The notes below the pieces were generated by a model, which saw only the letters and a list, made by a program, of their open reading frames with translations, ran no database searches and had not been told where the DNA came from. The position numbers and the translations under genes are program-made. 64,000 bases of DNA from Candidatus Woesearchaeota archaeon (GTDB lineage: Archaea; Nanobdellota; Nanobdellia; Woesearchaeales; GW2011-AR15). The stretch is from the NCBI GenBank assembly GCA_038874655.1, contig JAVZBY010000002.1, forward strand, positions 86,040 through 150,039, read 5' to 3'. Positions 13,701-58,914 of this stretch are shown here, piece after piece (within the stretch, counting starts at the first letter, position 1; the number at the start of each line of letters is the position of its first letter).

Positions 13701-16155
13701 TGAATTAAATGTTTCATTTACACAAGGCATACATACAATAAAAATTAGAGTTAATGACACTTATTATTACTTAGGAAACACATTACAAAGAATAAAAGAT
13801 TCATTGCCCATAATTTTATACATTGATACAACTCCACCAACAATTACATTTAATACATTTAATTTAACATGGTTTAATTCAGAGCCAATAATAAACTTCA
13901 CTATAACAGATAATTTAGATAATTTAATTAATTATATAATTTATATAAATAATAATCCAGTTACATCTGGATCAGCAAATTCAAGCCCACAAAACATAAC
14001 AATATATAATTTACAAAATGGAACTTATGAAATCTATATAGAAGCATTTGACGAAGCACTTAATTATAGAAATTCCTCTGTATTAACAATTTATCTAGAT
14101 ACTGTAAAGCCAACAATCTACTTATTGGCACCTCAAAATGGAATCTCTTTATTAGCTAATTATACAACCTTTAATTTTTCAGTAATTGATAATTTAGACA
14201 CATTATTACAATGTAATTTAACAATTGATGCTAAAGTGAATGTTTCAAACATATATGCTTATAATAATTCTATAAATAGCACAGCTGTTTATAATTTAAG
14301 AGAAGGCACTCATTATTGGAATGTTAGTTGTTGGGATGGCAACTTAATAACACCTGTAAGTTTAATAAACACTTCAGAAACATATTACTTCAATGTATAT
14401 AATCCACCTATAATAAAGCTAATACAACCAGAAAACAACAATTGGACAAATAACCCAGAAGTTATTTTCTTCTTTAATGTTAGTGAGGAAACAGGATTGC
14501 AAAACTGCTCTATTTTATTAAATGGAATTATTCAAAATACAAAACAAGGTAATTTACTTAATAAAAATGGTTTAAATAATATAACTTTAACAAACTTAAA
14601 TGGCACATATTCTTGGCAAATTGAGTGTTATGATAATACAACAATTTATAATTATGCAATCTCAGAATCAAGAACTTTAAATGTTGATTTAGATGCACCG
14701 ATTCCTTATATAGAAACATTAAATAATACTTGGTTTAATTATAATAATCCCTTAATCTATTTTAATATATCTGATAACATGGCTTCAATAATTAATTATA
14801 CTTTTTATGTGAATTCAACACAAAACAGACAAGGCAGTGTAAATAATGCAACATCCACATCTATTAATTTAAATCCAATTCAAGATGGTTATTATTTATT
14901 AACATTAGAGGCATTTGACTATGCTTACAATAGAAGAAATAGTTCCTCTATAACAATTTTTGTTGATACAACTAAACCAACAATAAGTTTATTATCTCCA
15001 ATTAATGGATTCAGCACATCAGATACAAATATATTGTTTAACTTTACATCATTAGATAATTTAGCAAAAACAATGATATGTAATTTAACAGTTGACAATC
15101 AAATTATTAAATCATTCAACACGACATCAGGGTTATCTAATTACACTTATTTAAATATGGCAGCAGGTATTCATTATTGGAATGTATCCTGTTCAGATTT
15201 AGTTGGTAATTTCAATACAAGTGAAACATATTACTTTATAATCCCATTGCCTGATTTATATGTATCAGCAGATTATATCCTCTTTAATACAACAGCACCA
15301 GAAGAAAATACAAATATAACTATAAATGCAACAATCTTTAATATAGGAAACACAACTGCATACAATGTTACAATACAATTCTGGGATGGTCACTATTTAA
15401 ATGGAACACAAATTAATGGAAATTTTACATATAATATTTCAGCAGGCCAAAACATAACTATTAATTTATCATGGAAAGTAAGTTCTGTAGGAGACCACTT
15501 TATCTATGTTATAGCTGATCCACCCTTACAAACAAATGGAACGATTAAAGAATCTAATGAAACAAATAATTATGCATATAAACTTATAATTGTTGGTAGT
15601 TATACATATATTTATGGTAATTTCTCAGGATTCCTAAATTTAAAGGACTTAAACAATATAACTGTCTATCAATGGGATATTAATGATTTAAACGGTTCAA
15701 AAATATTTGCTGTTGATTATGATAGTATTATAGATTGGCAGAAATTACAAGCAATCTCTAGAGATATTTATAATAACTATGTGTCTAATGACTTTTATGA
15801 AATAGATTTAGCATTAAGAATGGAAAATAACTCTGATTCTATAAATAAAACATGGATCTATAATAATAATCCTTATTACACAAAAAATTATAATGTTTTC
15901 CTCAATAATATACAAAATATTCCTTTTATTAACTCAACAAATACTACAAATTTCCAAACAGGTATTTTATGGGATTACTCTGATGGAAACACGCAATATA
16001 ATGGGACACAGGATTTAGTATTTTTTACAATTGTTAATATAAATCAAACAGGAATACATGGAAAATATGACTACGAATTAAGAGTTCCAGCAAACTTAAG
16101 ATATTATAAACAACCAAATATAGCTACAATTGCATTATATACAGAATTAAAATAA
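1765..16155 (+). CDS. Giant secreted surface glycoprotein (4796 aa): MG2-like N-terminal domains, four scaffold-plus-insert modules, long Ig-like array, two CARDB-like domains, C-terminal family-A domain
   Basis: N-terminal signal or TM helix. Repeated (W/Y)NxxCxD Ig-like units. PDL...NIG...ExNETNN CARDB-like motifs. Very dense sequons. C-terminus aligns with the 23949, 24851 and 36336 proteins. Confidence 0.9.
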   Translation: MNSEKNYPKFVSLFLIILIIVISIVIINAQNLLENNYIKINKKEFFLGETVEIELLINDLNNINIDLYTPNAIYKYPFPSKIIKYKPILEGNYRLVVLKNKEILTTTTFFVKKNEYNLIEEILNQSTIKNNEETENLLDINKPNLITDKETYLLNQEVIISINNLSIDDLSNYNLIINSSNTIINYIDLKSNTIKFFPKKQGIYTLILISKKSNEEIAKKEISVNSFNQQFNNEISLNYDNKTNSINNNIDNQKEIMINQSIEYSDNLFNNSKNIEQLNRQYNNLPFKIKNSKNYFLIANITISNKRLKNLSLDTFSFINLSDDLYDIEIQPNIRQIRKIKLHNVSFKGNFDLGLEEIDSQATKFKDIKKAIAIDPSKINFTNGFIEINATSDVLLKCKDWNFTEQKCFGKFELIKTLNKGQTYFIDINSTDPAYYELGLASINTNKSLYKENETAQIWIVALDYTGHLISNANITLQIISPNNEIFIFSTDSNISQIELGIYELNFTTKEQGNYTIFANVYSNLINTTLFSFFSVVDYYEFEIIRKSPLTTDPWRDTFTTKLKIISNNHNGLFNLTEKIPIGFEIIETDAIITNDSNYYYLTWNNLQNNSEVNYTALAPFITPAVYEFKSFVSYEMNNQSLIFNEAKPWFLAVDPIMYTQVCQAQINSVGQNTFGSACDGVYPSSCSATGDLLTCNDNFFETHTGTNTNRWAGVRISAYDSTIRDCVSITRVELCYEWWRDIGFSNARIAVDRNNWASPTTVTTTLPGTTANPGVTCADVTSLEAWTCDNFDGTGQAAQAVAQAQRDNSGSTRTLYIDVLFFNVTYLRDYPPNITQNRPPSYYYNDTFSPINITFNCSAVDDIRVSNISLYITNLNNNSFALNQSCNILATSGSCQWTLLLPSGNYTWNCLAYDNRTQGTWGTNRTIIINYTMPPTPKINSYSCEINTLNNWQPCNTIAYGNTILRVRANCTTDSGLITNTTFLLYNLPDNIYLLNGTSTTQTSGYYIYDNPDLQITDSGYFNLSVQCFNSFNKNQTNTTAWNLAWGTLSSQLIYPFEPISVPQNSTFNFTSRLTCLGGECGDVNATLDPIYIVLFNHTFETGLEDFIWLDDIYGTNQPTQSEGYVTNRIFCPNGFCLFGDLHTVNNSNTGPWSGGFNKTFNLTSYTYGLKANITVNITFDYNLIIDQTTEAGEYVYLYYRNITSKTSVQGPNIQGSGAGGTDEVFENVSGRISLIFYNVSDVFSFDVGCYMTDTNANDEDGGCFIDNILIQATVELNKGKISNIPGTKPFWTLSPNPYTEANLACLRNMIAGQSCNTTWVVNATGPLYTTWDFFVLYEPTEYSSYLSFNKSKSVNITITDMVRPVITFVQCQRNSTSWVSCDSIKYNEYISGVRGTCTYTEGIITSMSFNLKNQFYNRTYFDVSTTDNSTNYWTSTFSPIRVNNSGNFALYSRCYANSLFGDYSLNWSLPYGTIYISWINLSSEVNVTQNKFSNFSVLLTCQGGECINISAFIDPEIGQQFALMTFDGSTNFPLRDGLCNTATDTCALSNPWDDFDNCIAGNGQYGICASRYAGSGGTERGLLCQGCDRNNAGNTGGLYISLNSTPCGGYPCQYIFISYYQAVQSMDAANEGSVVLVRDNDGIWREVSRCIDNDLCDCDRIAGCTLATIGQYAQYVNVNLCDIPGIDCTQPLDIFFTSYATNVNQGTGDYFMWDQINITGYLPKGIISYGSGSPFYTTYANPVYRQNNSCLAYLDVGQSCIITWPVNATGNLNSLHEFYVNATTFNNQTTQSSIIDVRITDNKLPYVSFITLNPINPTSYDNLNCSFIINDANYFDKLYANITWYRNDIVYSNQMISINNNQLTSVILSSSNTNNGEVWHCGITPYDETVYGNQLNSTKVNILISQPPIISNVQCQRNSTSWVSCSDIKFNDILTMVRAQCIDLDGYVMNVTFNLTNFEDKYLFFKNTTYMPESGYYYFNNTDILIRDSGNFNLSVSCIDDTNVETVYYLTWLVPFGKLKGQWLNPPNINVNVTRYKLSNFSVRIICEGGECGNITAVLDPLILYPQANMDFESPTNFPLATGQCGTGAGWQCADSSPWDDFDNCIGGNGVYGICASTEANSGETGIRGLECRGCDRADALNQGGLYINIPARSCNDYVCEQINISFYQIVQSMDNANEGSAVLVRDEDGIWRNLTTCMDNQPRCDCDVIPGCTRAEMGAYAQFFKKDLCQVPGINCSQNISILFTSYNLINHGTDDYFAWDKILVEKYGQKGIIPVGSGFPFYVIENNPRTWNDFSCLYNMTSGDSCEITWQVNATGNYNKTHEFFAYFNSTYSAIELNETKHIYVTITDNFPPRVTYVEIGPEVALNDTDIYCSFIITDPNYFDSLWANITWYRNKTFYFNQQVPISINTLTQVYLLANNTEPGEYWHCGVTPFDGSIYGNQVNSTNLTIYLYPPPSINSIQCNVNGLWKDCKNILYFTNFSAIRTNCSSNEGMVNATFNFTNIPDNKVFFNNLTTTYSNGYFIFDFEDINITDSGEMEIYAKCIDNVNQVVYGKVNWTILWGTLTASLVYPDSDTSVQRNNFFTFQARVTCSGGECGNINATLDPYTNSTIYDFKQGYNIDKFAWVIDSNNNPPESLPNSRTALTLAQVALINVSDNNRYTMPDPGAGDWISLDMIMNIKEKREDITKMQFYFEGYPNIASTLQIYAWNFNTNTWNSLGTQSFSTGSDQIMTVNITSNILNYINASNNNIRWLLLNTLTSEYILVDYVYVNITYNAYKGIIPRQEGAIPFYTRDYNPKDYTNQSCLGNMISGQSCIASWLVNATGPLGSTHEFFVYFNATNYSQYIMPKETTHIFITITDSTLVPPIVILNDPQDNLYTNNQNIIFNCSVTDNFNLKNISLVADFNGIFDINETYQITGTSNTSLFYKYLDDGKYIWNCLAYDSDNNLDWGNSNRTLTIDTKEPTIILNNPLNESSFTTTNLALNFTVIDALDKILNCDLYLNGFLYQQNINANNNSNTIINLINLTPNTYKWFITCIDDATNMNVSEEYIFYISDLPPSVSLLTPNNIYFRTPNISLFYFATDNLNINLSTLILNGYPFAYQYNLGTSVISSFNLTYMPEGLYNWTVNVSDSSNLTDQAPYRYFTIDYTEPIIYIYAPDNNLTINETQTRINFTVVDNLDFMIMCNLTINNQIAQTNIPAINNSFVSYLITNFYDGLNYWNLTCFDDAGNYITSETRILNVSAPPNVVLNYPFNNHFQNQQNITLYYTPQDNVNLSVCELFINGQYNQSNIEITNGVQNTFELTSLSENIYSWSVRCNDTSNLSTMSETRIFTIDLTKPTIYLLYPNNGDTIYGKWTNFNFSVIDNFDINLSCNITVDGLIRKSNLPVLNNTPTNFTINVSDEGPHTWYITCIDDATNFNVSETRNYFTTNPPEVQLVFPNNGAIINYNLINFTYIPIDDNLASATLILNGLRNETNTTLYNELENYFRIYLTDGIYNWTVNVTDATNLYTMPDVLTFTIDSTPPLITIHHPAGFEILDWNNITFNFTVSDNLFQPIYCNISINSVPQFTNIPVNNNSNVIRYYSLNDGTHSWQVRCIDLTNNTAIQTQNFIVEAPPRVNLINPVNQTRTTQQSFNFQYLPYDVFGLYNCTLILDNKLNESSSSILNNQINTLFVSYIPEGLHNWTVRCIDNPPDYNSYQPEPWQFRIDLTGPTIILKYPMQDQTFNLNNITFNYTAIDSDNIIIDCNISVSDPYGNRLNATSMPAGYDHIITITNLADGDHYWNVTCVDDLGNVNTSETRRFIINQPDLFTNNNLVFLNNINPDLYENITISINVSNIGGQPANNVLVNFYDGNPNLGGLFIGNDTNSVAINQTIAFTTSWLITPGYHTIYISVDPYNQISELDETNNNATINISVLWANITNPKNQSWFNTLIVPINFTAYDYTGNSITYIVLIDNTPNGQNGYVIDSINNELNVSFTQGIHTIKIRVNDTYYYLGNTLQRIKDSLPIILYIDTTPPTITFNTFNLTWFNSEPIINFTITDNLDNLINYIIYINNNPVTSGSANSSPQNITIYNLQNGTYEIYIEAFDEALNYRNSSVLTIYLDTVKPTIYLLAPQNGISLLANYTTFNFSVIDNLDTLLQCNLTIDAKVNVSNIYAYNNSINSTAVYNLREGTHYWNVSCWDGNLITPVSLINTSETYYFNVYNPPIIKLIQPENNNWTNNPEVIFFFNVSEETGLQNCSILLNGIIQNTKQGNLLNKNGLNNITLTNLNGTYSWQIECYDNTTIYNYAISESRTLNVDLDAPIPYIETLNNTWFNYNNPLIYFNISDNMASIINYTFYVNSTQNRQGSVNNATSTSINLNPIQDGYYLLTLEAFDYAYNRRNSSSITIFVDTTKPTISLLSPINGFSTSDTNILFNFTSLDNLAKTMICNLTVDNQIIKSFNTTSGLSNYTYLNMAAGIHYWNVSCSDLVGNFNTSETYYFIIPLPDLYVSADYILFNTTAPEENTNITINATIFNIGNTTAYNVTIQFWDGHYLNGTQINGNFTYNISAGQNITINLSWKVSSVGDHFIYVIADPPLQTNGTIKESNETNNYAYKLIIVGSYTYIYGNFSGFLNLKDLNNITVYQWDINDLNGSKIFAVDYDSIIDWQKLQAISRDIYNNYVSNDFYEIDLALRMENNSDSINKTWIYNNNPYYTKNYNVFLNNIQNIPFINSTNTTNFQTGILWDYSDGNTQYNGTQDLVFFTIVNINQTGIHGKYDYELRVPANLRYYKQPNIATIALYTELK
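4567..10365 (+). repeat. Four intragenic protein-level modules (C..W..C / CxGGEC...DP [insert] KG.I...PF...CL...SC..W.VNATG)
   Basis: GGEC...DP ends at 5037, 6315, 7953 and 9594. KG(I/K)I begins at 5602, 6940, 8584 and 10111. Confidence 0.85.
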
Positions 16156-16176: not shown

Positions 16177-18039
16177 ATGAAAAATAAAAACATAATAAGA
16201 ATTACTTTATTTTTATTTGTTTTAATATTATTTAGTTTTATTATTGTTATTTATATTGCAAAAGCACAATGTCAATTAAAAGAAATTCCGTTTTTTGAAT
16301 TAAATGAAGGGGACATTTTTAATTATACTTTAAATTTTGTAAATCAAAACATTTCTGAAAAAGGATTATCAGAAATTAAAATTTCACTTATAAAGATAAA
16401 TTCTTCAATAAATCCTGTGATTAAAAATAATCTAATTAATTTTAAAGCAGATCAAAACTCAGGAAACAAAAATTCGTTTTTAATTGTTTCAACAATGGAA
16501 AATGGGTGCTATGATGTTAAGAAATTTGATTTTTTTGTTTATTTAAAACCTAAAATTATGGAAAAAAACCCAATAGAGGATTATTTAGAAATTTATGAGA
16601 CACAATCAATAAAATTTTATGCTTCAGCATATTCTTTTTATGATACTGATGTAAAAACAGAGTGGTATTTAAATGGAATTAAACAAAAAGAGAGTTCTAA
16701 TTCTTATATCTTTTTCACAAATTATAGTTCAAAAGGATTATTCACATTAGAATATGTTGCAAAAGATAAAAGGCAAAACACAACAATAAAATGGTTAATA
16801 AATGTAAAAGATAAAAATAGAAAACCTATTTTAAGATTTAATATTCCTGACTTTGTTTTAACAAATTATACAAGAGGAAGATTATTGAATTTAAATGATT
16901 ACTTTCAAGATCCAGATTTAGACAAATTAAAATTTGAATTAGTTTATTTTGATAAAATTAATAATTCTATTAAAGAAAAGTCCTATGAAATTTTTAATTT
17001 TAGTATTAAAGATAATGGTGATTTTGAAGTTTATCCAATTAAAAACATTTATTTAACAGAATATCTTAAAGTAATTGCTTATGATTTTCAAGGAGAAAAA
17101 GCAGAAAGCAATATTTTCTTTATGAAATTAGTTAATTCAGATAATATAAGTTATATCTTTCTAAATACTTCAAAAAAAGAACAATGTAAACCAAATATAC
17201 AATGTACAGAATGGAGTCCATGTTTGATTACAAACATTAGAACAAGAGAATGTTTTGATGTAAATAATTGTAATTCAGAGAACACTACAATTACAGAAAC
17301 AATGCATTGTGATTATAATGCTACTTGTAATGATGGAATTTTGAATCAAGGTGAAGAAAAAGTTGATTGTGGTGGCCCATGTGAACCCTGTCCAACTTGT
17401 GATGATGGTATTTTAAATCAAGGTGAAGAAAAGGTTGATTGCGGCGGTCCTTGTCAAGCTTGCGAAAATTGTTATGATGGTATAAAAAATCAAAATGAAA
17501 TATTTACCGATTGCGGTGGTCTATGTAAAAGTTGTTTATTATTAGATATTATTAACTTCATAAAAAGTTATTATTATTTAGCATTTATATTTATATTTTT
17601 ATTAATTATAAAAATCTATTCAAAAAACATTAGTAGTTCTGATAAAATAAAAAATTATATCTTTTATTCAAAACTATTTAATTTTTTACCTAAAAAAATT
17701 CCAGAAAATTATAAAGAGATTTTTACTCAAACAATTTCAGATTTAACAAGCATAAAAAATGATATTTTAAATCTTGAAGATAAAGAAAAAATAAAAGAGA
17801 AATTTTATAATATTATAGATAACTTTTACAAAAATTTTTTAGAATTAGATCTTGTAAATAATATTACTGTAAAAAATTCTTCAAAAAAAATAATAAATCC
17901 CTTTTTAAGAGAATTAATCTTGTTATTGTATTATGATACAAGAGATATTTCAGTTGAATCACCTTTTTATAGAATTGAGTTAAATGAAAAAATAGATCAA
18001 ACAATTGCAATATTAAATAAGATTAGGGATTTATTATGA
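16177..18039 (+). CDS. Membrane-anchored surface protein with cadherin/Ig-like domains and Cys-rich CxDGxxNQxExxxDCGG repeats
   Basis: Signal peptide, LNDYFQDPDLDKL cadherin-like motif, C.EWS.C..R.C.D.N.C unit, three DCGG repeats, TM helix and cytoplasmic helical tail. Confidence 0.8.
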   Translation: MKNKNIIRITLFLFVLILFSFIIVIYIAKAQCQLKEIPFFELNEGDIFNYTLNFVNQNISEKGLSEIKISLIKINSSINPVIKNNLINFKADQNSGNKNSFLIVSTMENGCYDVKKFDFFVYLKPKIMEKNPIEDYLEIYETQSIKFYASAYSFYDTDVKTEWYLNGIKQKESSNSYIFFTNYSSKGLFTLEYVAKDKRQNTTIKWLINVKDKNRKPILRFNIPDFVLTNYTRGRLLNLNDYFQDPDLDKLKFELVYFDKINNSIKEKSYEIFNFSIKDNGDFEVYPIKNIYLTEYLKVIAYDFQGEKAESNIFFMKLVNSDNISYIFLNTSKKEQCKPNIQCTEWSPCLITNIRTRECFDVNNCNSENTTITETMHCDYNATCNDGILNQGEEKVDCGGPCEPCPTCDDGILNQGEEKVDCGGPCQACENCYDGIKNQNEIFTDCGGLCKSCLLLDIINFIKSYYYLAFIFIFLLIIKIYSKNISSSDKIKNYIFYSKLFNFLPKKIPENYKEIFTQTISDLTSIKNDILNLEDKEKIKEKFYNIIDNFYKNFLELDLVNNITVKNSSKKIINPFLRELILLLYYDTRDISVESPFYRIELNEKIDQTIAILNKIRDLL

Positions 18040-20789
18040 AAAAATATAATGACATTACTAATAAAATTAAAATAAAAATATTAAAAAAAATATTGCAATT
18101 AATTTTTAGGTTATACTTTAGATTATACTTATTTATTTCATGTTTTATATTATTTATATTATTTTTTAATCCTGTCTTTTCACAAGAATTAAATTTTTCA
18201 CTAGAATTAAATAAAGTCAATTTTTTTCTTAATGAACCTGTAATTATAAATTTAGAAGAGGATTATTATAAATTAAATAACACAAATTCATTTGATAATT
18301 TAACATTAAAAATAATATCCCCAAACCATTATTATAATTATTTAGGAGGTCTAGATAAAAGATTAATTTTTCAACCAAATGAAATTGGTAAGCATTATAT
18401 AGAATTATATTTTAATAATGAGCTGGTAAAAAAATTAGAATTTATTGTTTTTGAAACCAATTCTCAAGTTTCTGAGAATTCTTCTGTTTTAAATAACTTA
18501 AATATATCGCGAAACAATATATATAATAATGTTTCTGAAAATCAAACAGAAATTATGATTATTCAAAATTCAAATTTTTCAACAAAACAATCGAATATAA
18601 AATTATTAGATATCATAAAAATTAATGTAAAACAAAATTATTCTTTAGATGAAAATGTTTTTATCACACTAACAAAAAATGAACAAACTCTTTATGCAAT
18701 AAATCCAAGAGAAGACATCAATTTTTCAAAATTAATAATACATTCAAATAAAGATTATGTTTATGAAAATCCAAAAAATAAAATAATTTTTAAACCTTCT
18801 GAACTTGGTAAACATGAAATTATTTTATATGATACTTTTGATAATGAAGTAGCAAGAGCATCATTTAATGTTATAGAAAATAAAAAATTTATTATTAAAG
18901 ATAGTAAGGGGAAAAAAATAGATGCAACATTTCAATACAAAGATAAAATAAAAAAAAATATTTCTGAATTAATTTCTGAAATTAAAAATGAAAAAAATCA
19001 AAAAATAGAATTAACAGTTTTACCTAATCTAAAAAATATAAAAAAAATTACTTTTAAAGATATAAACCTAGAAAATAGTTTTGATTTTTATCTAGAAGAT
19101 CTTGATACATTTAATTTAGAAAGAAGTTTCATAAAAGCATATGCAATTAATCCTGAAAATTTAGATTTCTCAGAAGCAATTTTAACAAGCATAAGTCAAG
19201 GAAAAACACTTTATAAGTGTGCAGAATGGAATTTTCAAGAACAAAAATGTTATGGTATTTGGAAAAAAATAATGTCTTTAGTTCCTGGACAAGAATATAA
19301 TGTTATTATAACAAAAAATGACCCTGCATATGCAGAAAGTAATGAACTTATTGAACCTAAACCTGTAAGTGGTTTTGTTTTTATGTCAGATAATACAAGA
19401 GCAAATAATGGTATTCCAGTAAGAATTTTTAATAAAGCAAATGGTGAAAGTGTTTTAACACAGGTTTATGCACCACCAATTCCAATATATAAAGGAGCTT
19501 ATTCTGCTAATATTTATGGAATAACTGGAGATTCTATTGTTGTAAGAGCATGGAATTCTACACATTATGGCGAAACAAATGCAACTTTATTAGCAACAAC
19601 AACTTATGTTAATATAACAATTCAATATTTTAAAGGAAGTGAACCCAATGTTTCAATAATTTATCCATTAAATAATTCAATTTTTTATTTAGGTCAAAAT
19701 TTTAATATAACTGCAAAAGTTCAAATATTAAATAACAATGCAGAAAAGTGTTATGCTTCTTTTATTAGCACATTAGCTGAACCAATAACAGGGCAAAGTA
19801 ATACAATTTTTTTAGGAGACATAATGCAAAATAATGAAATTACTTTTATGTTTAATTTAACTGCAATAAAAGGCGGCTATGAAAAATTAATTGTTAATGT
19901 TTCTTGTTCAACAGATACAATTCTAGATGGCTTAAATATAGCAAGAGTAAATTTAACTTTTATTGATAATGTTAAACCAGAGATAACAATATTTAAACCT
20001 CTAAATAATGAAGAATCATTAAATCCTATTAAGTTTATATTTAATGTTTCAGATCATACGGGCATAAAAAACTGCTCATTAATTTTTAATGGTAATTTAA
20101 ATCAGACAATTTTTAATCCACAAATGTATATTTTACATTCTTTTAATTTAACCTTGCAAGCAGGAACATATAATTATAACATTGATTGTTATGATAATTC
20201 AACTTTATTTAATTATAATATTACTGAAACCATAAACTTTTTTCTACCCTCATGGCATTTTTATTATGGTAATATAAGCTCAAAAATATTTTTAGGCTCT
20301 GGGGAAATTGAAAAATATTCTTGGGAAACCTATTCAGAGGCATATCTTTATGTGATTGAAACAAATACAGTTGTAGATTGGAATAATTTACAAGCATTAG
20401 GTAGAGATAAATTTAATAATTCAGAATTTAATGATTTTAACGAAGCAGATATCAATTTATCGATGCAAAATTTTGTTGATTCAATTAATAATACTTTTAC
20501 TCAAAATTATCAACCAAAAAAATTAGTTAATTTAACCATTTTCGGAAAAAGAATAAATAACATTCCAGTAATAAACTCAACAAATAACTCTAATTTTATT
20601 ACAGGCATTCTCTGGGAAATGACTGGCAATAATTATAATGGTAGCCAAAATTTAATATTCTTTACAAATAAAAGTATTGCAAAACAAGGCAAATTTGGTT
20701 TATATGAATATGAAATAAGAATCCCTGCTAATTTGAAAAATTATAAATTAAATTCTGGGACTATCACTTTTTATACTGAGATAATATAA
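18036..20789 (+). CDS. Secreted multidomain protein (917 aa) sharing N-terminal domains with the giant proteins and ending in a family-A domain
   Basis: AINP...LYKCAEWNFQEQKCYG...NDP is shared with 1765 and 43763. Ends WHFYYGNISS...DSINNTF...YEYEIRIP...FYTEII. ATGA overlap with the upstream gene. Confidence 0.85.
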   Translation: MKKYNDITNKIKIKILKKILQLIFRLYFRLYLFISCFILFILFFNPVFSQELNFSLELNKVNFFLNEPVIINLEEDYYKLNNTNSFDNLTLKIISPNHYYNYLGGLDKRLIFQPNEIGKHYIELYFNNELVKKLEFIVFETNSQVSENSSVLNNLNISRNNIYNNVSENQTEIMIIQNSNFSTKQSNIKLLDIIKINVKQNYSLDENVFITLTKNEQTLYAINPREDINFSKLIIHSNKDYVYENPKNKIIFKPSELGKHEIILYDTFDNEVARASFNVIENKKFIIKDSKGKKIDATFQYKDKIKKNISELISEIKNEKNQKIELTVLPNLKNIKKITFKDINLENSFDFYLEDLDTFNLERSFIKAYAINPENLDFSEAILTSISQGKTLYKCAEWNFQEQKCYGIWKKIMSLVPGQEYNVIITKNDPAYAESNELIEPKPVSGFVFMSDNTRANNGIPVRIFNKANGESVLTQVYAPPIPIYKGAYSANIYGITGDSIVVRAWNSTHYGETNATLLATTTYVNITIQYFKGSEPNVSIIYPLNNSIFYLGQNFNITAKVQILNNNAEKCYASFISTLAEPITGQSNTIFLGDIMQNNEITFMFNLTAIKGGYEKLIVNVSCSTDTILDGLNIARVNLTFIDNVKPEITIFKPLNNEESLNPIKFIFNVSDHTGIKNCSLIFNGNLNQTIFNPQMYILHSFNLTLQAGTYNYNIDCYDNSTLFNYNITETINFFLPSWHFYYGNISSKIFLGSGEIEKYSWETYSEAYLYVIETNTVVDWNNLQALGRDKFNNSEFNDFNEADINLSMQNFVDSINNTFTQNYQPKKLVNLTIFGKRINNIPVINSTNNSNFITGILWEMTGNNYNGSQNLIFFTNKSIAKQGKFGLYEYEIRIPANLKNYKLNSGTITFYTEII

Positions 20790-23758: not shown

Positions 23759-23968
23759 ATGAAACCAACTGAATGGGTTAAATTAGTTTATAGTGAAACC
23801 CCTGATAAAGCAAATGTAAAACAGGGTTTTCTTTATGATGAGGGAGATTTCTATAGAATTGTTGGTTCTAATTCTGAAACACTTGTAAGAAAAGTCAATG
23901 TCATCTCTATTACTAAAAAAATTAATTTTGAAAAAAAGGTGAGAAACTATGAAAGAATTAGGCTATAA
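23759..23968 (+). CDS. Small beta-rich protein (possible Sm/SH3-like barrel)
   Basis: 69 aa with an AGGTG RBS and strand pattern VKLVY..G.L.DEGDFYRI..TLVRK.NVISI. Overlaps the next gene. Confidence 0.65.
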   Translation: MKPTEWVKLVYSETPDKANVKQGFLYDEGDFYRIVGSNSETLVRKVNVISITKKINFEKKVRNYERIRL

Positions 23969-24746
23969 ATTATTAACTTATTTATCAGTTGTTTTTGTTT
24001 TTTTAATTGCATTTTTTTATGCAAATGCAATTGAAGTCCCAATGGGAGCACAAACAGTAACAGAAGGATATGAATCCACAATTAACAATAGTAATTATCC
24101 TCCAGCATCAATTCAAGCATATGCTGGTAATATCTCACAATTGACAATCTTTGGTAGATCACAAACAAAACACTGGCAAGGTTATTATGGTGAAGTTTCA
24201 GGTGTAATTGTTTTGGATGATGCACAAAACTGGACAATGTATGACTGGCCAAACCCAGAACCAAAAGGTGAAATATATGCAACAGTTAGTGCAACAACAC
24301 CTATCTGGAATACAATAAGATGCTTTAATTACTCTGGAACAGAGGCAGGCAGCACAAATAACACCTTTTACTGGGAATCATTTTACAACATGACCTTTAA
24401 TGATGTTGACGGAATTGATGAAACTTTCAATATTACACAGCATCCAACTTTTGATGTAGGTGAATTTACAATCACAGAAAACACATGTCCAAGTACATTC
24501 ACACATGTTAATGACCAATGGCAAGAACAAAGATTTGTAGAAATTTTATTACAAGATGCAAACGGTCTTTTAATCTTTACAACAATAATAGAAAATAAAG
24601 ATGAAGGTATTAATGATGATGTTGTTGGTTATAATGGAGTTACTCATGACTTTCAATTATTAGTTGCAGAAGATGGTACAAGTAGATCAGGTGGAGCTAG
24701 AAACCAAGACACAACAACATATTACTTTTACTTAGATTTAGAATAA
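23949..24746 (+). CDS. Secreted family-A protein 1 (putative filament or surface subunit)
   Basis: Signal peptide, WQGYYGEVSG, two Cys, C-terminal HDFQ...YYFYLDLE, no TM anchor. Confidence 0.85.
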   Translation: MKELGYKLLTYLSVVFVFLIAFFYANAIEVPMGAQTVTEGYESTINNSNYPPASIQAYAGNISQLTIFGRSQTKHWQGYYGEVSGVIVLDDAQNWTMYDWPNPEPKGEIYATVSATTPIWNTIRCFNYSGTEAGSTNNTFYWESFYNMTFNDVDGIDETFNITQHPTFDVGEFTITENTCPSTFTHVNDQWQEQRFVEILLQDANGLLIFTTIIENKDEGINDDVVGYNGVTHDFQLLVAEDGTSRSGGARNQDTTTYYFYLDLE

Positions 24747-24850: not shown

Positions 24851-25624
24851 ATGAAAAATTTCCAAGAAAGCAAAGGAAAAGAAATGACAAAAGTAGTCAT
24901 TTCTATCATGATTTTTGCCTCTCTATTATTTTCCTTAATAATAGCACAATTGATAATAGTTAAAGCAGACCCTGATGGTGCGGATGTTGTTTATATAACT
25001 AATTCAAGTAAAGTTGCAAAAACCCCTGATAATAGAACAGATGCAAAAGGAACTATAACAACTATTTTTTTAAATACAGTTCAGCAAAACATAAGATGGA
25101 AAGCATATGTAGGAAATGTATCAGGTAAATTAGTTTTAAGGGATGCAGAACAATACAGCATTTATGAATGGCCAGCAATGGCAAACCCAGATGGTGTTAT
25201 TTTTATAACAATGAATCAAAGTATAGATTGGACTACTATTCAATGTGCAAACACAAGTGATATACAAAACTTTCAATTATCATTAGGTCATAGTAATTCA
25301 GCTCTTGATAATGTTAATAATACCTTTAATACAAAAATTCATCAAAGTTTTGATGTAGGTGTAAAGCCATTTTCAAGTAATCAATGTTGGTCAGCATTTC
25401 CTTGGGTAAATAACTCAGCACAAACACCTAGTACAAATGCTTTATTTCAAGAAGTTTTACTTATGGATGCAAACAGAAGAATTATTTTTGCTTCATTAAT
25501 TGATCAAGATACTCAAAGTTATAGAAATGATGGTACAACAAAATATGATTTTCAAGCTTTAGTTCCTGATTACACTAGTGCAGAAAATGCACTTTATTAT
25601 TTTTATGTTGAAATATCTGGATAA
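24851..25624 (+). CDS. Secreted family-A protein 2
   Basis: Signal peptide, WKAYVGNVSG, DNVNNTF, YDFQALVP...YYFYVEISG. GGAGG RBS. Confidence 0.85.
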   Translation: MKNFQESKGKEMTKVVISIMIFASLLFSLIIAQLIIVKADPDGADVVYITNSSKVAKTPDNRTDAKGTITTIFLNTVQQNIRWKAYVGNVSGKLVLRDAEQYSIYEWPAMANPDGVIFITMNQSIDWTTIQCANTSDIQNFQLSLGHSNSALDNVNNTFNTKIHQSFDVGVKPFSSNQCWSAFPWVNNSAQTPSTNALFQEVLLMDANRRIIFASLIDQDTQSYRNDGTTKYDFQALVPDYTSAENALYYFYVEISG

Positions 25625-25668: not shown

Positions 25669-26592
25669 ATGGAAAATGTAATGCCAAGCAAAACAGAGCA
25701 AAACCTTATTTTAATAGGTTTATCTCTATTATTTGTAGCTTGGCTTCTATTATTGATTGAACCCTTGATAAATAGTCAACCTTATAATTCAACAGCATTA
25801 GTTAACACAACAGTTAATATAACAAATTCAGCTCCAATGGTTTATAATGTTTTTTTAGATACACCAATTAATTTAATAGCTTATGGTAATAAAACAGTAT
25901 ATTGTAATGCTACAATTTTTGATTTTGATAATCAAACTATTGCAGTTAATGCTACTCTATACATTGTTGGTATAACAGATGAAAATTCACCAGATGATGG
26001 CAATGATCATTATACAAATACAAGTTGTACAAGAGTAAGTCCACAAGATAGAGAAATGCAATACAGATGTGCATTTTCAGTAAGATATTATGCTAATAAT
26101 AATACTAATTGGCGTTGTAATGTTACAGCTATAGATACAGGTAATGCAATTAACTCAAATATTTCAAATTTAGCAACAATAAATCCTTTAGTTGCTATAA
26201 AATTACCCCCTTTAATTGATTATGGTGATTTAGCAGTTTGGGATATTTCACAAGATATAGATGCTAATGTAACAAACGCAGGAAACAGAGACGCAAATAT
26301 CTCTGTAGAAGGATGGGGCTCAACCCCTGGAGATGGCTTAGCATTTGTTTGTGATTTTGGGTCAATAGCAATATCTTATGAAAGATATGACATTACAACA
26401 GGAACAAACTATAATTTAATGTCTCAATTAAGTACTACAACAACAATGATTCAAAACTTTTATGTTCCTCAAAGAACAAGCGAAATATATGATTCAATTA
26501 ACTCAACATGGTGGAAAGTACAAATTCCAATAGGCGCAGGTGGTGTTTGTAATGGAACAATCTTATTTACAGCAACAGATAGAGGGAATTAA
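25669..26592 (+). CDS. Secreted family-B protein 1 (putative filament or surface subunit)
   Basis: Signal helix, SQPYN...VNITNSAP, C-terminal GAGGVCNGTILFTATDRGN. Paralog of 42685. Confidence 0.85.
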   Translation: MENVMPSKTEQNLILIGLSLLFVAWLLLLIEPLINSQPYNSTALVNTTVNITNSAPMVYNVFLDTPINLIAYGNKTVYCNATIFDFDNQTIAVNATLYIVGITDENSPDDGNDHYTNTSCTRVSPQDREMQYRCAFSVRYYANNNTNWRCNVTAIDTGNAINSNISNLATINPLVAIKLPPLIDYGDLAVWDISQDIDANVTNAGNRDANISVEGWGSTPGDGLAFVCDFGSIAISYERYDITTGTNYNLMSQLSTTTTMIQNFYVPQRTSEIYDSINSTWWKVQIPIGAGGVCNGTILFTATDRGN

Positions 26593-33305: not shown

Positions 33306-33806
33306 TTAAGTATACAAAACCCCAACAACAAAATGGGTTATTTTACTCTTTTCAATAATTTCTCCTTCTTTTAATGAATCTCCTTGGACATAAACTTTAT
33401 CACCATAATCAGCTCTAACTCTATGGATTACTGCTTGTCCATTATCTCTCACAAATCTTACGATTTGTCCTGGTTTTATTTTTTCACCATTATATTTTTT
33501 TTCAATTAGAGTATTTCCGTCAAAAATAGTTGGTTGCATACTTGGGCCATTAAAAATGCCATAATCATTAGCTAAAACATAAAACCCTTGTGGATTCAAA
33601 TAATACTCCAAATCATAATGACTTCCTTCGATAAAATTAAAATTTTGATTATCTTCAATTTTTTTTAATGTCTCATTAATATATCTAAATTTTTCTTTCA
33701 TTTCATTAAAATTTTTTGCATAATTTATATTCAAAAATATTAAAGAGAGTAATATTAATAAAAATAAAACATTAAAAGTAAATTGATTTTTATCATATAT
33801 TACCAT
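33306..33806 (-). CDS. S24/S26-family peptidase, signal peptidase I-like (Ser-His type)
   Basis: N-terminal TM helix, GPSMQPT, VIHRV and VQGD motifs. Confidence 0.8.
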   Translation of the reverse strand: MVIYDKNQFTFNVLFLLILLSLIFLNINYAKNFNEMKEKFRYINETLKKIEDNQNFNFIEGSHYDLEYYLNPQGFYVLANDYGIFNGPSMQPTIFDGNTLIEKKYNGEKIKPGQIVRFVRDNGQAVIHRVRADYGDKVYVQGDSLKEGEIIEKSKITHFVVGVLYT

Positions 33807-33831
33807 TTTGTTTCACTCTTTTAACTTATCT

Positions 33832-36237: not shown

Positions 36238-36335
36238 CCAACACCCCCAATTTATTAATAATAAAACTCCTTTATATTCTTTTTTATTTTTACAGGATTT
36301 CATTTTTGATTTTAAAACCACAATCAGTTTTCTAC

Positions 36336-37097
36336 TTATTGCAATTCCATATAGAAATAATATCTAGTGTTTTCATAACCTCCAACACCTCTTTCAGGAA
36401 CAATCATTTGGAAATCATATCTTTGAAAATTATAACCTATTGTGTTATCATTGATAAATGTAGTGTATATTAAAACTTGGTTGTCAGTTAATAAAACCTC
36501 TTGGAAAGGAGCATTTATACTTGGAGTTTGTGCAGTATTATTAATCCATGTAAAAGTAGATTTACATGAATTTTGATTTATTTTAATATTACCAACATAA
36601 AACTCTTTATGTATATTGTATGAAAAAGTATTATTTATACTATCCACATTTGAAGTTGTATGATTTAATGCATTTTCCTCTTTTTGTATATCTGTTAAAT
36701 TAGCACATCTTACACTACTCCAAGAAATATTATTAAATCTAGTTGCATAAACCTTTCCTGTAATTTCAGTTAGTTGCCATTGATAAATACTATAATCCCC
36801 AGAATCATCTAAAGTTAAAACACCAGTAACATTTCCAACATATGCTTTCCATTTCAGGTTTTGTGTTTCAGCACTTAAAATAACAGTTGTAAAACTACCT
36901 CCACTAGTATTTAAAAATTGAGCTGCACTAGGTTGTTTAGTTTCACTAGAATTAAATAAAATTTGAGCACCACTCATATTATAATTTTGTGATTTTACAT
37001 TTGCTAAAATAATTAAATTAATTAATATACTTATGAATATTAAAAACAGGATCTTTTTTTCTTTTTTTAGTTTAGCATTTATTTTATAGTGAATCAT
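36336..37097 (-). CDS. Secreted family-A protein 3
   Basis: WKAYVGNVTG, DSINNTF, YDFQMIVPE...YYFYMELQ. Confidence 0.85.
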   Translation of the reverse strand: MIHYKINAKLKKEKKILFLIFISILINLIILANVKSQNYNMSGAQILFNSSETKQPSAAQFLNTSGGSFTTVILSAETQNLKWKAYVGNVTGVLTLDDSGDYSIYQWQLTEITGKVYATRFNNISWSSVRCANLTDIQKEENALNHTTSNVDSINNTFSYNIHKEFYVGNIKINQNSCKSTFTWINNTAQTPSINAPFQEVLLTDNQVLIYTTFINDNTIGYNFQRYDFQMIVPERGVGGYENTRYYFYMELQ

Positions 37098-42684: not shown

Positions 42685-43593
42685 ATGAAAAAAAGGGAGG
42701 GGACATCATTATTTATTTATGTATTTTTCATACTCATATTTTTTATATGGATTGCTTTATTATTTGAGCCCATCATACAAAGTCAACCCTATAATCAAAC
42801 AGCGATAATTAATGTGACTGTTAATATAACAAACTCTGCACCTATAATTACATCAATTTCCTTAGAAACACCTATTACTTTAATAGGATATGATACAAAA
42901 ATGGTTTATTGTAATGCAACGGCATTTGATTTTGATAATAACACAGTAATAGCTAATGCAACATTTTATTATCAAGGATATTCACCAGACACCCCAGATG
43001 ATCAAAATTATCATTACACTAATGTAAGTTGTAGACAAACAGGTAGATATAATACAGAAACAAACTTTACATGTGGTTTTAATGTAAGTTTTTTTGCAAA
43101 TAATGGAACATGGTATTGCAATATAACAGTTATAGATGATTTTGGAGCATTTAGTTCTAATATTAGTAATCCTGGCTTAATTCAACCTTTAATAGCAATC
43201 TATGTTCCAGGAATATTGGATTTTGGAAACTTAAATCAAGGAGAAAATACATCAGACAAATTAGTTAATATAACAAATGCAGGAAATAGAAACATAAACA
43301 TTAGTGTAGAAGGTTGGGCGCAATATCCTGGAGATAATTTAGCAATGAATTGTACATTTGGAAACATTCCCATACAATACGAAAGATATAATATAAGCGC
43401 AAATTCAGATTTTATAAACATGTATCAACTAACCTCAACCACAACTATGATAAGAAACTTTTTTATTAGACAAAGAACAGATGAAAACTTAGATTCTGTA
43501 AATACAACATATTGGAAATTATATGCACCCATAGGAGCAGGAGGAGTTTGTACAGGTAAAATATTATTCACTGCAACCGATAGAGGCATTTAG
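42685..43593 (+). CDS. Secreted family-B protein 2
   Basis: SQPYN...VNITNSAP and GAGGVCTGKILFTATDRGI. Colinear with 25669. Confidence 0.85.
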   Translation: MKKREGTSLFIYVFFILIFFIWIALLFEPIIQSQPYNQTAIINVTVNITNSAPIITSISLETPITLIGYDTKMVYCNATAFDFDNNTVIANATFYYQGYSPDTPDDQNYHYTNVSCRQTGRYNTETNFTCGFNVSFFANNGTWYCNITVIDDFGAFSSNISNPGLIQPLIAIYVPGILDFGNLNQGENTSDKLVNITNAGNRNINISVEGWAQYPGDNLAMNCTFGNIPIQYERYNISANSDFINMYQLTSTTTMIRNFFIRQRTDENLDSVNTTYWKLYAPIGAGGVCTGKILFTATDRGI

Positions 43594-55285: not shown

Positions 55286-55328
55286 ATAGTTTTAAATGAA
55301 TAAAATTGAAAAAAATTAAATATATAAA

Positions 55329-58201: not shown

Positions 58202-58914
58202 CATTAGATGAATTAAAAATAATAGCAAACCAAAAAGGCTATAATCTGTTAATGATTGAGAAGGATTATTTAATAACATATTTGTTATATCTAATAAAAG
58301 ATATTGAACATATTTTTTTTAAAGGAGGCACAGCTTTAAATAAAATTTTTTTAAATTATGAGAGATTATCTGAAGACTTAGATTTTACAATAACAAAAAA
58401 TCCTTCTGAAATTGAAGAATCTATTAAAAATAAGATTAAAAAAACAATTTTTAGAGATATTTCATATGGAAAAAAAACAAAATCTTTTACAAGATTAATT
58501 CTAAATTATAAATTATTTCATGAAAAAGGTTCTATTTATATTGATTTGAATAAAAATGCAAAATTAGAACTTAAGCCTGTTAGATATAAAATAAAGCATT
58601 TTTACAAGGATATTCCAGAGTTTAGTGTTAATTGTTTAGATTTAAAAGAGATGATTGCAGAAAAAGTAATTGCAACAGCAGAAAGATATAAACCAAGAGA
58701 TTTTCTTGATTTATATTGGATAATTAAAAATAATTTCATAATCTCAAAAAAATTAATCCTAAAAAAAAGAAAAAAGTTTTCAAAAGATTTAATCTTTAAA
58801 AACACGAATAAAGTTTATAGTAAATGGGATACAGATTTAAAATATTTAATAAAAACAGATATATCTTTTCAAGAAGTAATTATGACATTAAAAGAATATT
58901 TTAATTATAGATGA
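58192..58914 (+). CDS. Type IV toxin-antitoxin toxin, AbiEii-like nucleotidyltransferase
   Basis: IEKDY, FKGGTAL, RLSEDLDF, AEKV and RDFLDL signature motifs. Confidence 0.92.
   Translation: MVITLDELKIIANQKGYNLLMIEKDYLITYLLYLIKDIEHIFFKGGTALNKIFLNYERLSEDLDFTITKNPSEIEESIKNKIKKTIFRDISYGKKTKSFTRLILNYKLFHEKGSIYIDLNKNAKLELKPVRYKIKHFYKDIPEFSVNCLDLKEMIAEKVIATAERYKPRDFLDLYWIIKNNFIISKKLILKKRKKFSKDLIFKNTNKVYSKWDTDLKYLIKTDISFQEVIMTLKEYFNYR

What the first reader, a model, noticed from the sequence alone, without database searches (positions are those of the whole stretch)
19353..20789. Domain-swap pair: same three-domain core, ending in an A domain in one protein and a B domain in the other
The 917-aa protein (EPKPVSG...GAYSA...VRAWNSTHYG; SEPNVSIIYP...FNITA...NVSC.TD; DN..PEI.I..P.N...NVSD...IKNCSL) is colinear with the 591-aa protein at about 59025-59920 (PEPRTVRG...GIYSA...VKAWNATRWG; SEAKVIIINP...FNLTA...NASCDSD; DNRSPEI...NVSD...IKNCSL). 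One then ends in A and the other in B. This suggests A and B are interchangeable C-terminal docking modules, and that these two proteins are adaptors.
Basis: seen in the sequence. Interest (0 to 1): 0.72.

Follow-up and report, generated by a model that had tools for sequence, protein, structure and literature searches.

The report
Swappable end modules on archaeal surface proteins
Two surface proteins of a tiny DPANN archaeon share one three-domain core but end in different modules, and each module also exists as a free secreted protein, so the ends probably plug the core into two kinds of undescribed surface fibre.

Summary
Residues 440-737 of the 917-aa protein align colinearly with residues 42-338 of the 591-aa protein (33% identity over 301 columns, E 3e-34). 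No other protein in this 1.26-Mb genome has the whole core.

The ends are separate modules:
- A (~180 aa) has no structural match and no Pfam family. It also ends the 4796-aa and a 602-aa protein, and it forms six free secreted proteins of 230-267 aa.
- B (~250 aa) is two Ig-like domains. It also forms two free proteins of 302 and 307 aa.

Of 107 metagenomic proteins with a full core, 45 end in A and 56 end in B. On the core tree the two ends are interleaved, with at least 6 well-supported switches. One A/B pair is 56% identical up to the last core residue and unrelated after it.

A complex prediction places the conserved N-terminal strand of free B into the B module of the 591-aa protein (score 0.77, controls 0.00). 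I read the two proteins as acceptor-only end subunits of strand-exchange assemblies.

Docking of A, polymerisation and the core's function were not tested. The scan had already noted the A family, here (e1-4709224) and on other DNA (e1-898725). The B docking and the swapping are new.

The parts
18036..20789 (+). Gene for the 917-aa protein: signal peptide and N-terminal head (res 1-439), core (440-738), A module (739-917).
   Evidence: ORF. The head is homologous to the N-termini of the 4796-aa and 3840-aa giants (E 1e-19 and 2e-19).
19353..20249 (+). Three-domain core of the 917-aa protein (res 440-738).
   Evidence: 33% identity and E 3e-34 to the 591 core. The third domain matches Pfam Big_7 (E 1.3e-6).
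20250..20786 (+). A module (res 739-917). It starts at the conserved Trp and lacks the N-terminal segment of the free A proteins.
   Evidence: Own-genome iterated HMM, 9 members, E 4.6e-46 for this one. 43% identity to the 4796-aa C-terminus.
58911..60686 (+). Gene for the 591-aa protein: signal peptide, core (res 42-338), B module (339-591).
   Evidence: ORF; alignments.
59034..59924 (+). Three-domain core of the 591-aa protein.
   Evidence: As a query it found 214 proteins at E<=1e-3 among 1.84 billion representatives.
59925..60683 (+). B module, two Ig-like domains. The predicted strand-acceptor site is res 459-476 (window 60285-60338) and res 572-590 (window 60624-60680).
   Evidence: 35% and 34% identity to the free B proteins (E 4e-41 and 1e-39). 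Interface residues.
42685..43593 (+). Free B protein, 302 aa. The predicted donor strand is res 35-51 (window 42787-42837).
   Evidence: AF2 pLDDT 94.1, helix 7-25 then two beta-sandwiches. Complex prediction. The strand is 89-100% conserved at V46, N47, I48, T49, N50 and P53.
25669..26592 (+). Free B protein, 307 aa, last gene of an A-A-B row.
   Evidence: 55% identity to the 302-aa protein. The same A-A-B order is at G143:C53 and A-B at G137:C44.
23949..24746 (+). Free A protein, 265 aa.
24851..25624 (+). Free A protein, 257 aa.
36336..37097 (-). Free A protein, 253 aa. It lies in a row with a double-HTH gene, an 829-aa PGF-pre-PGF protein and a divergent S26 signal peptidase.
   Evidence: 379 homologues, all unnamed. 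AF2 pLDDT 80.9. Neighbours.
15598..16155 (+). A module at the C-terminus of the 4796-aa giant (res 4612-4796).
   Evidence: 43% identity over 184 aa to the 917 A module. HMM E 1.9e-48.

Best explanation
The 917-aa and 591-aa proteins are paralogous secreted surface proteins built on the same three-beta-sandwich core. Each carries one of two alternative C-terminal attachment modules. Each module is the fold of a family of free, secreted subunits (A: six genes in this genome; B: two). The free subunits have an extra conserved N-terminal strand that the fused modules lack. I propose that the free subunit's N-terminal strand inserts into the fused module (donor-strand complementation). The fused protein can then accept a strand but cannot donate one, so it sits at one end, most likely the distal tip, of a chain of free subunits. 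Recombination at the core boundary moves the same core between A-type and B-type assemblies.

Shown: core homology; recurrence of the modules as free and fused forms; repeated swapping.
Shown in silico only: strand insertion for B.
Inferred: strand insertion for A, polymerisation of the free subunits, tip position, and a role in attachment.
For: 1. Core homology: E 3e-34 over 301 columns.
2. Module families in this genome: 9 A members (6 free of 230-267 aa; 3 fused, always at the extreme C-terminus) and 3 B members (2 free, 1 fused).
3. Association outside this genome: all 23 of 23 core hits end in A (18) or B (5). Of 107 full-core proteins among the 166 examined, 45 end in A and 56 in B. Three have B partial or not at the end. 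Three are 295-365 aa and stop right after the core.
4. Swapping:
 - The A/B label needs 22 changes on the 97-row core tree, at least 6 of them forced by branches with SH-aLRT >=95.
 - P0334 (A) and P0288 (B) are 56% identical over signal peptide plus core (E 4e-117), with no homology after core residue ~338.
 - On 28 hand-picked rows the AU test rejects a single A clade (delta lnL 364, p 2.4e-107).
5. Docking of B: ipSAE 0.77, 0.78 and 0.77 in three runs against 0.00 in three controls. The runs agree in at least 88% of contacts and the partner pLDDT is at least 87. In the tool's calibration this mark was reached by 58 of 80 solved complexes and 2 of 110 mismatched pairs. The interface is free-B residues 35-51 lying between 591 residues 459-476 and the C-terminal strand 572-590.
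6. Conservation: that strand is the most conserved part of the free-B N-terminus (V46 94%, N47 99%, I48 93%, N50 99%, P53 100%). Acceptor positions are more conserved than the rest of the module (2.42 vs 2.12 bits in fusions, 409 of 10000 random subsets as high; 2.98 vs 2.36 bits in free B).
7. No solved relative exists by sequence, so the pass is not recall of a homologous complex.
8. Free A has the same layout. The shared domain starts at W83. The preceding segment 64-80 is nearly invariant (T64, G66, G67, T70, T71, Q79) but is modelled at only pLDDT 41-57 in the monomer. It is absent from fused A.
9. Free and fused genes co-occur and often lie side by side in other genomes, for example G045:C7, G038:C40 and G126:C2 for B.
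Against: - The only physical evidence is one structure prediction, for B only.
- The interface conservation signal is weak (p about 0.04 and 0.07).
- The A fold has no match to any pilin or other solved structure (Foldseek best E 0.29; VIA best Z 4.4). Its pilin-like role therefore rests on analogy.
- B is a generic tandem Ig-like unit.
- No chaperone, usher, sortase or other assembly factor was identified.
- Free B has a long hydrophobic N-terminal helix. It might stay in the membrane, which would give a 1:1 dock and not a fibre.
- The core has no recognisable binding domain.
- In this genome the two cores are only 33% identical, so this particular pair is an old divergence and not a recent swap.
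- P0310 carries B followed by a further ~230 aa, so B is not always terminal.
Confidence: 0.6

Rival explanations
1. One-to-one membrane dock, no fibre. Free A and free B stay anchored in the membrane by an uncleaved N-terminal helix. Each holds one fused protein at the cell surface by inserting its N-terminal strand into the fused module. A and B are then two alternative sockets for retaining secreted surface proteins.
For: Free B has a 19-residue hydrophobic helix (AF2 helix 7-25), and the donor strand begins only ~8 residues after it. The fused proteins have no membrane anchor of their own. The Pam pilus preprint on CPR bacteria proposes a similar role: a two-domain protein, PamR, predicted to insert its N-terminus into the last pilin and tether the filament to the membrane (PMC13278184, passages read).
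Against: The residues after the helix (..IIQS|QP....LINS|QP..) match the (A/S)|Q pattern seen after the signal peptides of other secreted proteins here (sequences). This is my reading, not a predictor's output. Free A proteins have canonical AxA-type sites. The acceptor positions are even better conserved in free B than in the fusions (2.98 vs 2.36 bits), which fits free subunits also accepting a strand. Six free A genes for three fused A genes is more than a 1:1 dock needs.
Confidence: 0.2
2. A and B do not bind their free counterparts. They are terminal functional domains, for example ligand-, glycan- or S-layer-binding heads. They are also made as free proteins for an unrelated reason, and the predicted B complex is a false positive of beta-edge pairing.
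For: The A fold is an orphan with no pilin resemblance. B is a generic Ig pair. In the tool's calibration 2 of 110 mismatched pairs reached the mark. A-only and B-only genomes exist.
Against: All three controls scored 0.00 against 0.77. The contacting strand is the most conserved N-terminal segment, and it is exactly the part missing from the fusion. Modules sit at the extreme C-terminus in 101 of 107 full-core proteins and also end giants of 2386-6807 aa. That placement suits an attachment end better than a ligand-binding head.
Confidence: 0.15
3. The resemblance of the two proteins is only generic Ig-like similarity, and no specific shared core exists.
For: All three core domains are common beta-sandwich types. 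Only the third reaches a Pfam family (Big_7). The atlas leads are generic (CarboxypepD_reg and Big_7, scores 0.85 or lower).
Against: E 3e-34 across three consecutive domains with 7 gaps. No other Ig-rich protein of the genome matches more than one domain. The three-domain unit is conserved as a block in 107 proteins.
Confidence: 0.01

Closest known systems
Chaperone-usher pili: two-domain tip adhesins (FimH, PapG, CfaE, CupB6) with FimA/FimG-type pilins (general knowledge; CfaE 6k73_C and CupB6 5cyl_F appear among the Foldseek hits to B)
   Same: The free subunit has an N-terminal extension that completes the next subunit. The end subunit is a functional N-terminal part plus a C-terminal pilin-like domain that accepts a strand but has none to give. 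The Ig-like fold of B also matches.
   Different: This is an archaeon with one membrane, and no chaperone or usher was found. There is no sequence relation (no Pfam, NCBIfam or PDB-sequence hit). B has two full Ig-like domains, and the strand is predicted between the first and last strands of the second. A is a different, orphan fold. One core is combined with two unrelated acceptor modules.
Archaeal thread filaments of Sulfolobus acidocaldarius (Saci_0406; preprint 10.1101/2022.04.26.489512, passages read)
   Same: An archaeal, Sec-secreted, heavily N-glycosylated, all-beta subunit. An N-terminal donor strand fills a gap between an early strand and the last strand of the neighbouring subunit, and assembly is independent of the type IV pilin peptidase. 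A paralogue encoded next door is proposed as an end subunit.
   Different: No sequence match. The proposed thread end subunit, Saci_0405, donates but cannot accept. Here the end subunits accept but cannot donate and carry large N-terminal cargo. No isopeptide bonds were examined here.
Pam pili of CPR bacteria (PamA/PamB pilins, PamT tip, PamR anchor; PMC13278184, passages read)
   Same: Ultra-small episymbiotic-type cells. Ig-like pilins assemble by strand exchange, with an acceptor-only tip subunit and an N-terminally inserting membrane tether. The families are invisible to standard annotation.
   Different: Pam pili are bacterial, and that paper calls them CPR-exclusive. Their donor strand is an inter-domain linker and they have membrane-anchored chaperones. 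No swapping of acceptor modules between tip proteins is described in the passages I read.
TasA/TapA fibres of Bacillus with SipW, and archaeal bundling pili AbpA (PMC9245690 seen only in the search listing; the rest is recalled)
   Same: Donor-strand fibres whose operon carries its own signal peptidase. Here a divergent S26 peptidase sits in a row with a free A gene.
   Different: No Peptidase_M73/TasA hit in Pfam or NCBIfam. The TasA fibre 8aur_A is only rank 12 for A, at E 0.48 and TM 0.14.

Membership tests
Donor-strand-complemented fibres (mechanistic class: chaperone-usher pili, archaeal threads, TasA/Abp, Pam pili) | The free subunit carries a terminal strand that inserts into the fold of the neighbouring subunit. 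| tested here: met
   In silico only, and for B only. Free-B residues 35-51 lie between 591 residues 459-476 and 572-590; ipSAE 0.77 against a best control of 0.00. Not tested for A.
Donor-strand-complemented fibres (mechanistic class) | An end subunit that keeps the acceptor domain but lacks the donor strand. | tested here: met
   Fused B starts at the position after the free-B strand, and fused A starts at W83 of free A.
Donor-strand-complemented fibres (mechanistic class) | Free subunits polymerise head to tail. | not tested
The only indirect sign is that the acceptor positions are conserved in free B.
Chaperone-usher pilins (Pfam Fimbrial and relatives) | Sequence membership, plus a periplasmic PapD-type chaperone and an outer-membrane usher. 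| tested here: not met
   No Pfam or NCBIfam family for free A, free B or the fused modules at E<=1. The organism is an archaeon (PGF-pre-PGF domain; relatives named Woesearchaeota or Nanoarchaeota). No systematic search for a chaperone or usher was run.
TasA / camelysin (Peptidase_M73) and AbpA | Sequence or fold similarity to TasA. | tested here: inconclusive
   No Pfam or NCBIfam hit. Foldseek places the TasA fibre 8aur_A at rank 12, E 0.48, TM 0.14. It is not listed by VIA.
Archaeal thread subunit (Saci_0406) | Sequence similarity to the solved chain. | tested here: not met
   Profiles of A (60 sequences) and B (72 sequences) against all PDB sequences gave no thread subunit at E<=10. Fold similarity was not examined directly.
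Cohesin-dockerin | Cohesin and dockerin domains. | tested here: not met
   Pfam Cohesin matched 1 of 44 core-B proteins at E 0.0055, and there was no dockerin. None in the 917-aa or 591-aa proteins.
Pfam Big_7 (bacterial Ig-like domain) | Score above the gathering threshold. | tested here: met
   917 residues 648-714 score 29.3 bits against a cut-off of 24.1. The 591 protein is below the cut-off (15.4 bits). 18 of 44 core-B proteins match. This applies to the third core domain only.

The most novel reading that the evidence does not exclude
DPANN archaea of the Woesearchaeota/Nanoarchaeota type build two undescribed, chaperone-free strand-exchange surface fibres. One is made of an orphan-fold subunit (A) and one of a tandem-Ig subunit (B). 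A natural plug-and-play system recombines heads, the three-domain core and spacers onto either acceptor module, so the same cargo can be re-targeted from one fibre to the other. This would be the attachment hardware of these episymbionts and a new, evolvable protein-display scaffold.
Probability: 0.35. Interest if true: 0.8.

Novelty: new variant of a known kind. Interest (0 to 1): 0.62.

Why it matters
How DPANN archaea hold on to hosts or surfaces is largely unknown, and most of their large surface proteins have no annotation. This finding gives testable parts:
- two unannotated subunit families;
- a predicted donor strand of 17 residues;
- a defined acceptor site;
- a clear recombination boundary.

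If the prediction holds, it adds a fourth archaeal strand-exchange filament system after threads, bundling pili and cannulae. It would be an archaeal counterpart of the Pam pili just reported in CPR bacteria. It would also show that terminal acceptor modules are exchanged between otherwise conserved tip proteins, which explains how a tiny genome diversifies its surface with few genes.

Tried and rejected
- Pfam and NCBIfam on free A, free B and the fused proteins gave no family except Big_7.
- Profiles of A and B against all PDB sequences gave nothing below E 0.09.
- Foldseek and VIA on the A model gave no credible match (best E 0.29; best Z 4.4). The VIA list was dominated by the signal-peptide helix.
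- The ESM Atlas shows only A's own family above TM 0.35.
- I tested whether the spacer in core-spacer-A proteins is a degenerate B. It is not: hhalign probability 5% and 0.7%. The spacer is a CARDB-type domain with or without one more Ig-like domain.
- I tested whether A and B are obligate partners. They are not: of 151 genomes sampled from the class, 14 have B, 9 have A and only 4 have both.
- The full core was found only in G000 among those 151 genomes with the 591 core as query, so the co-occurrence of core-A and core-B paralogues in other single genomes could not be counted.
- The AU test on all 97 rows did not finish in three runs. I replaced it with 28 rows chosen after seeing the tree, so its p-value is only indicative.
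- '32 of 97 cores have their nearest core on the other end type' is inflated, because the library is clustered at 50% identity and collapses close same-type relatives.
- phmmer with default filters missed the 4796-aa A module. The search was rerun with --max.
Full report
**Setting.** The window is G000:C2:86040-150039. The genome is 1.26 Mb in 17 contigs, 97% complete, and the window is 24.9% G+C. Homologues of the genes studied are named Woesearchaeota, Nanoarchaeota or DPANN archaeon where they have a name at all, and one neighbour carries the archaeal PGF-pre-PGF domain. Most of the window is an island of secreted, sequon-rich surface proteins.

**Observation.** The 917-aa ORF (18036-20789) and the 591-aa ORF (58911-60686) align colinearly over 301 columns: 917 residues 440-737 against 591 residues 42-338, 33% identity, 7 gaps, E 3e-34. 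Within the genome, no other ORF matches more than the third domain of this core. So the similarity is specific and not generic Ig-like resemblance. Only the third domain reaches a Pfam family (Big_7). Atlas look-ups suggest a CarboxypepD_reg-like first domain and Big_7-like sandwiches, but the scores are at or below 0.85, so these are leads only.

**The two ends are independent modules that also exist as free proteins.**
- An all-against-all BLAST of the window and an iterated HMM over all genome ORFs give nine A-family members.
  - Six are free proteins of 230-267 aa. Three are in the window (23949-24746, 24851-25624, 36336-37097 on the minus strand) and three are elsewhere on the contig.
  - Three are fusions in which A is the extreme C-terminus: the 917-aa and 4796-aa proteins, and a 602-aa protein just beyond the window.
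- The B family has three members: free proteins of 307 aa (25669-26592) and 302 aa (42685-43593), and the 591-aa fusion.
- Free A has 379 homologues and free B has 110 in the 5.8-billion-protein set. All are unnamed and without Pfam domains.
- The free genes are neighbours: A-A-B in the window, the same order at G143:C53, and A-B at G137:C44.
- A and B are not obligate partners. Of 151 genomes sampled from the class, 14 have B, 9 have A and 4 have both.

**Folds.**
- Free B models at pLDDT 94.1 as an N-terminal helix followed by two beta-sandwiches. The first is Ig/PKD-like. The second resembles PapD/ASH-type domains (CEP192 6fvi_A, Z 8.8, rmsd 2.3, 99 residues aligned). All these matches are generic.
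- Free A models at pLDDT 80.9 as a signal helix, a disordered stretch (39-68) and a beta-rich domain.
- A has no credible structural match: Foldseek best E 0.29, VIA best Z 4.4, and the atlas shows only its own family above TM 0.35.
- Profiles of both families find nothing among PDB sequences.

**Is the swap general?**
- A search with the 917 core returned 23 proteins. All of them end in A (18) or B (5).
- A search with the 591 core against 1.84 billion representatives gave 214 hits at E<=1e-3, of which 150 were listed.
- Taking both sets together (166 proteins), 107 have a full core. Of these, 45 end in A and 56 in B. Three carry a partial or non-terminal B (P0278, P0283, P0310). Three are 295-365 aa and stop right after the core, probably as fragments; I did not check this.
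- B follows the core directly. A follows it directly (the clade of the 917-aa protein), or after a CARDB-type spacer, or after an Ig-like domain plus CARDB. The spacer is not B-like.
- On a maximum-likelihood tree of 97 cores the A/B label needs 22 changes, at least 6 of them forced by branches with SH-aLRT >=95. Shuffled labels need 32 on average, and 0 of 500 shuffles were as low as 22.
- The window's two proteins are not a recent swap pair. The 917-aa protein sits in a fully supported all-A clade of 12, and the 591-aa protein in a supported all-B clade of 6.
- Elsewhere swaps are recent. P0334 (A-ender) and P0288 (B-ender) are 56% identical from the signal peptide to the last core residue (E 4e-117) and unrelated afterwards.
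- On 28 rows chosen after seeing the tree, a single A clade costs 364 log-likelihood units (p-AU 2.4e-107). That p-value is only indicative because of how the rows were chosen. The test on all 97 rows did not finish.
- The count '32 of 97 nearest cores carry the other end' is biased upward by the 50% clustering of the library.
- Concerted evolution of co-resident paralogues could give the same interleaving. That too is recombination at the same boundary.

**What the modules do.**
- I used the one complex job on the 591 B module (residues 330-591, with an alignment of 44 core-B proteins) and mature free B (residues 27-302, with an alignment of 72). The score was 0.77, 0.78 and 0.77 in three runs, against 0.00 in all three controls. 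The runs agreed in at least 88% of contacts and the partner pLDDT was at least 87. The tool's calibration says this mark was reached by 58 of 80 solved complexes and 2 of 110 mismatched pairs, and that the counts hold only roughly with my own alignments.
- The interface is specific. Free-B residues 35-51 (PYNQTAIINVTVNITNS) lie between 591 residues 459-476 and the C-terminal strand 572-590.
- This strand is the best-conserved part of the free-B N-terminus (V46 94%, N47 99%, I48 93%, T49 89%, N50 99%, P53 100%).
- Its hydrophobic residues alternate with Asn/Thr sequon residues. That suits one buried face and one glycosylated exposed face; this is my reading of the sequence.
- It is exactly the part the fusion lacks, since fused B begins just after it.
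- Acceptor positions are somewhat more conserved than the rest of the module, both in the fusions and in free B. The signal is weak.
- The residues between helix and strand (..QS|QP....NS|QP..) resemble the sites after other signal peptides in this island. Cleavage there would put the strand at the mature N-terminus. I read this from the sequences; no predictor was run.

**A has the same layout but was not tested.** The domain shared with the fusions starts at W83 of free A. The preceding segment 64-80 is nearly invariant yet poorly modelled in the monomer (pLDDT 41-57), and fused A lacks it.

**Mechanism proposed.**
- The fused proteins are acceptor-only end subunits. A free subunit plugs its N-terminal strand into the fused module.
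- If free subunits also accept each other's strands, a chain grows from there with the fused protein at the far end.
- The same core, and in other genomes giants of 2386-6807 aa, can be mounted on A-type or B-type assemblies by exchanging what follows the core.
- Main rival: free subunits stay in the membrane and act as 1:1 docks.
- Second rival: the complex is a false positive and the ends are functional heads.

**Comparison with known systems.**
- The logic matches chaperone-usher tip adhesins such as FimH (general knowledge).
- It matches the Pam pili of CPR bacteria, with an acceptor-only tip (PamT) and a tether that inserts its N-terminus (PamR) (PMC13278184, passages read).
- There is no sequence membership in any of these families, and no chaperone or usher was identified.
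- A full-text search for 'DPANN' with 'donor strand complementation' found one paper, the CPR one, which names DPANN only in a cited title. A search on Woesearchaeota, giant, surface proteins and adhesin found nothing on these families among its 20 listed titles.
- Earlier notes of this scan already described the A family as a tail module with free copies, here (e1-4709224, e1-4709228) and on other DNA (e1-898725). The B family's strand docking, the exclusive core-A/core-B association and the repeated swapping are new here.

**Verdict.** I class it as a new variant of a known kind of system. Interest 0.62.

Noticed in passing
window 57683-58914 (+): An AbiEi-like antitoxin (172 aa, PF13338, E 7e-5) and an AbiEii nucleotidyltransferase toxin (240 aa, PF08843, E 2.7e-26) lie directly upstream of the 591-aa gene. 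The longest ORF of the 591-aa gene overlaps the AbiEii stop by 4 bases. They may be a type IV toxin-antitoxin pair inserted in, or stabilising, the surface-protein island.
   Followed up: partly
window 33306-37648 (-): A row of four genes: a double-HTH gene (184 aa), a free A gene (253 aa), an 829-aa protein with a PGF-pre-PGF domain (E 3.6e-28) and a divergent S26 signal peptidase (166 aa, below the NCBIfam cut-off). The genome has two better signal peptidase I genes elsewhere, on C5 and C3. This recalls the dedicated SipW peptidase in the tapA-sipW-tasA operon (recalled).
   Followed up: partly
window 16177-18039 (+) and 26604-28511 (-): Two membrane proteins (620 and 635 aa) share a Cys-rich repeat module (37-43% identity, E 1e-23). 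Each lies next to A or B genes: one between the 4796-aa and 917-aa genes, the other next to, and convergent with, the end of the A-A-B row. They are candidate anchor or assembly partners. No family was found for either.
   Followed up: no
window 37094-37648 (-), 61003-61554 (+); also G000:C2:254518-255072 (-): Paralogous small proteins with two Sigma70_r4-type HTH units (38% identity, E 4e-21) sit in front of surface-protein genes. At 37094 (-) and at C2:254518 (-) the gene directly precedes a free A gene.
   Followed up: no
window 43763-57545 (+): The 3840-aa giant shares the N-terminal head with the 917-aa and 4796-aa proteins but ends in neither A nor B. It follows a free B gene. After it comes a 738-aa He_PIG/Big_9 protein with a C-terminal membrane anchor, whose N-terminus resembles the first core domain (E 2e-4).
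   Followed up: no
window 61551-63998 (+), runs off the window: An 816+ aa protein with many repeats of an LSTYxNxS-type motif and an SO2946-like C-terminal domain (PF22237, E 1.6e-14). Its reading frame meets a run of N in the assembly just beyond the window.
   Followed up: no
proteins P0379, P0389 (other metagenomes): The N-terminal head of the 917-aa protein also occurs on proteins that end in B (1457 and 3094 aa). So heads, core, spacers and ends all appear to be shuffled independently.
   Followed up: partly
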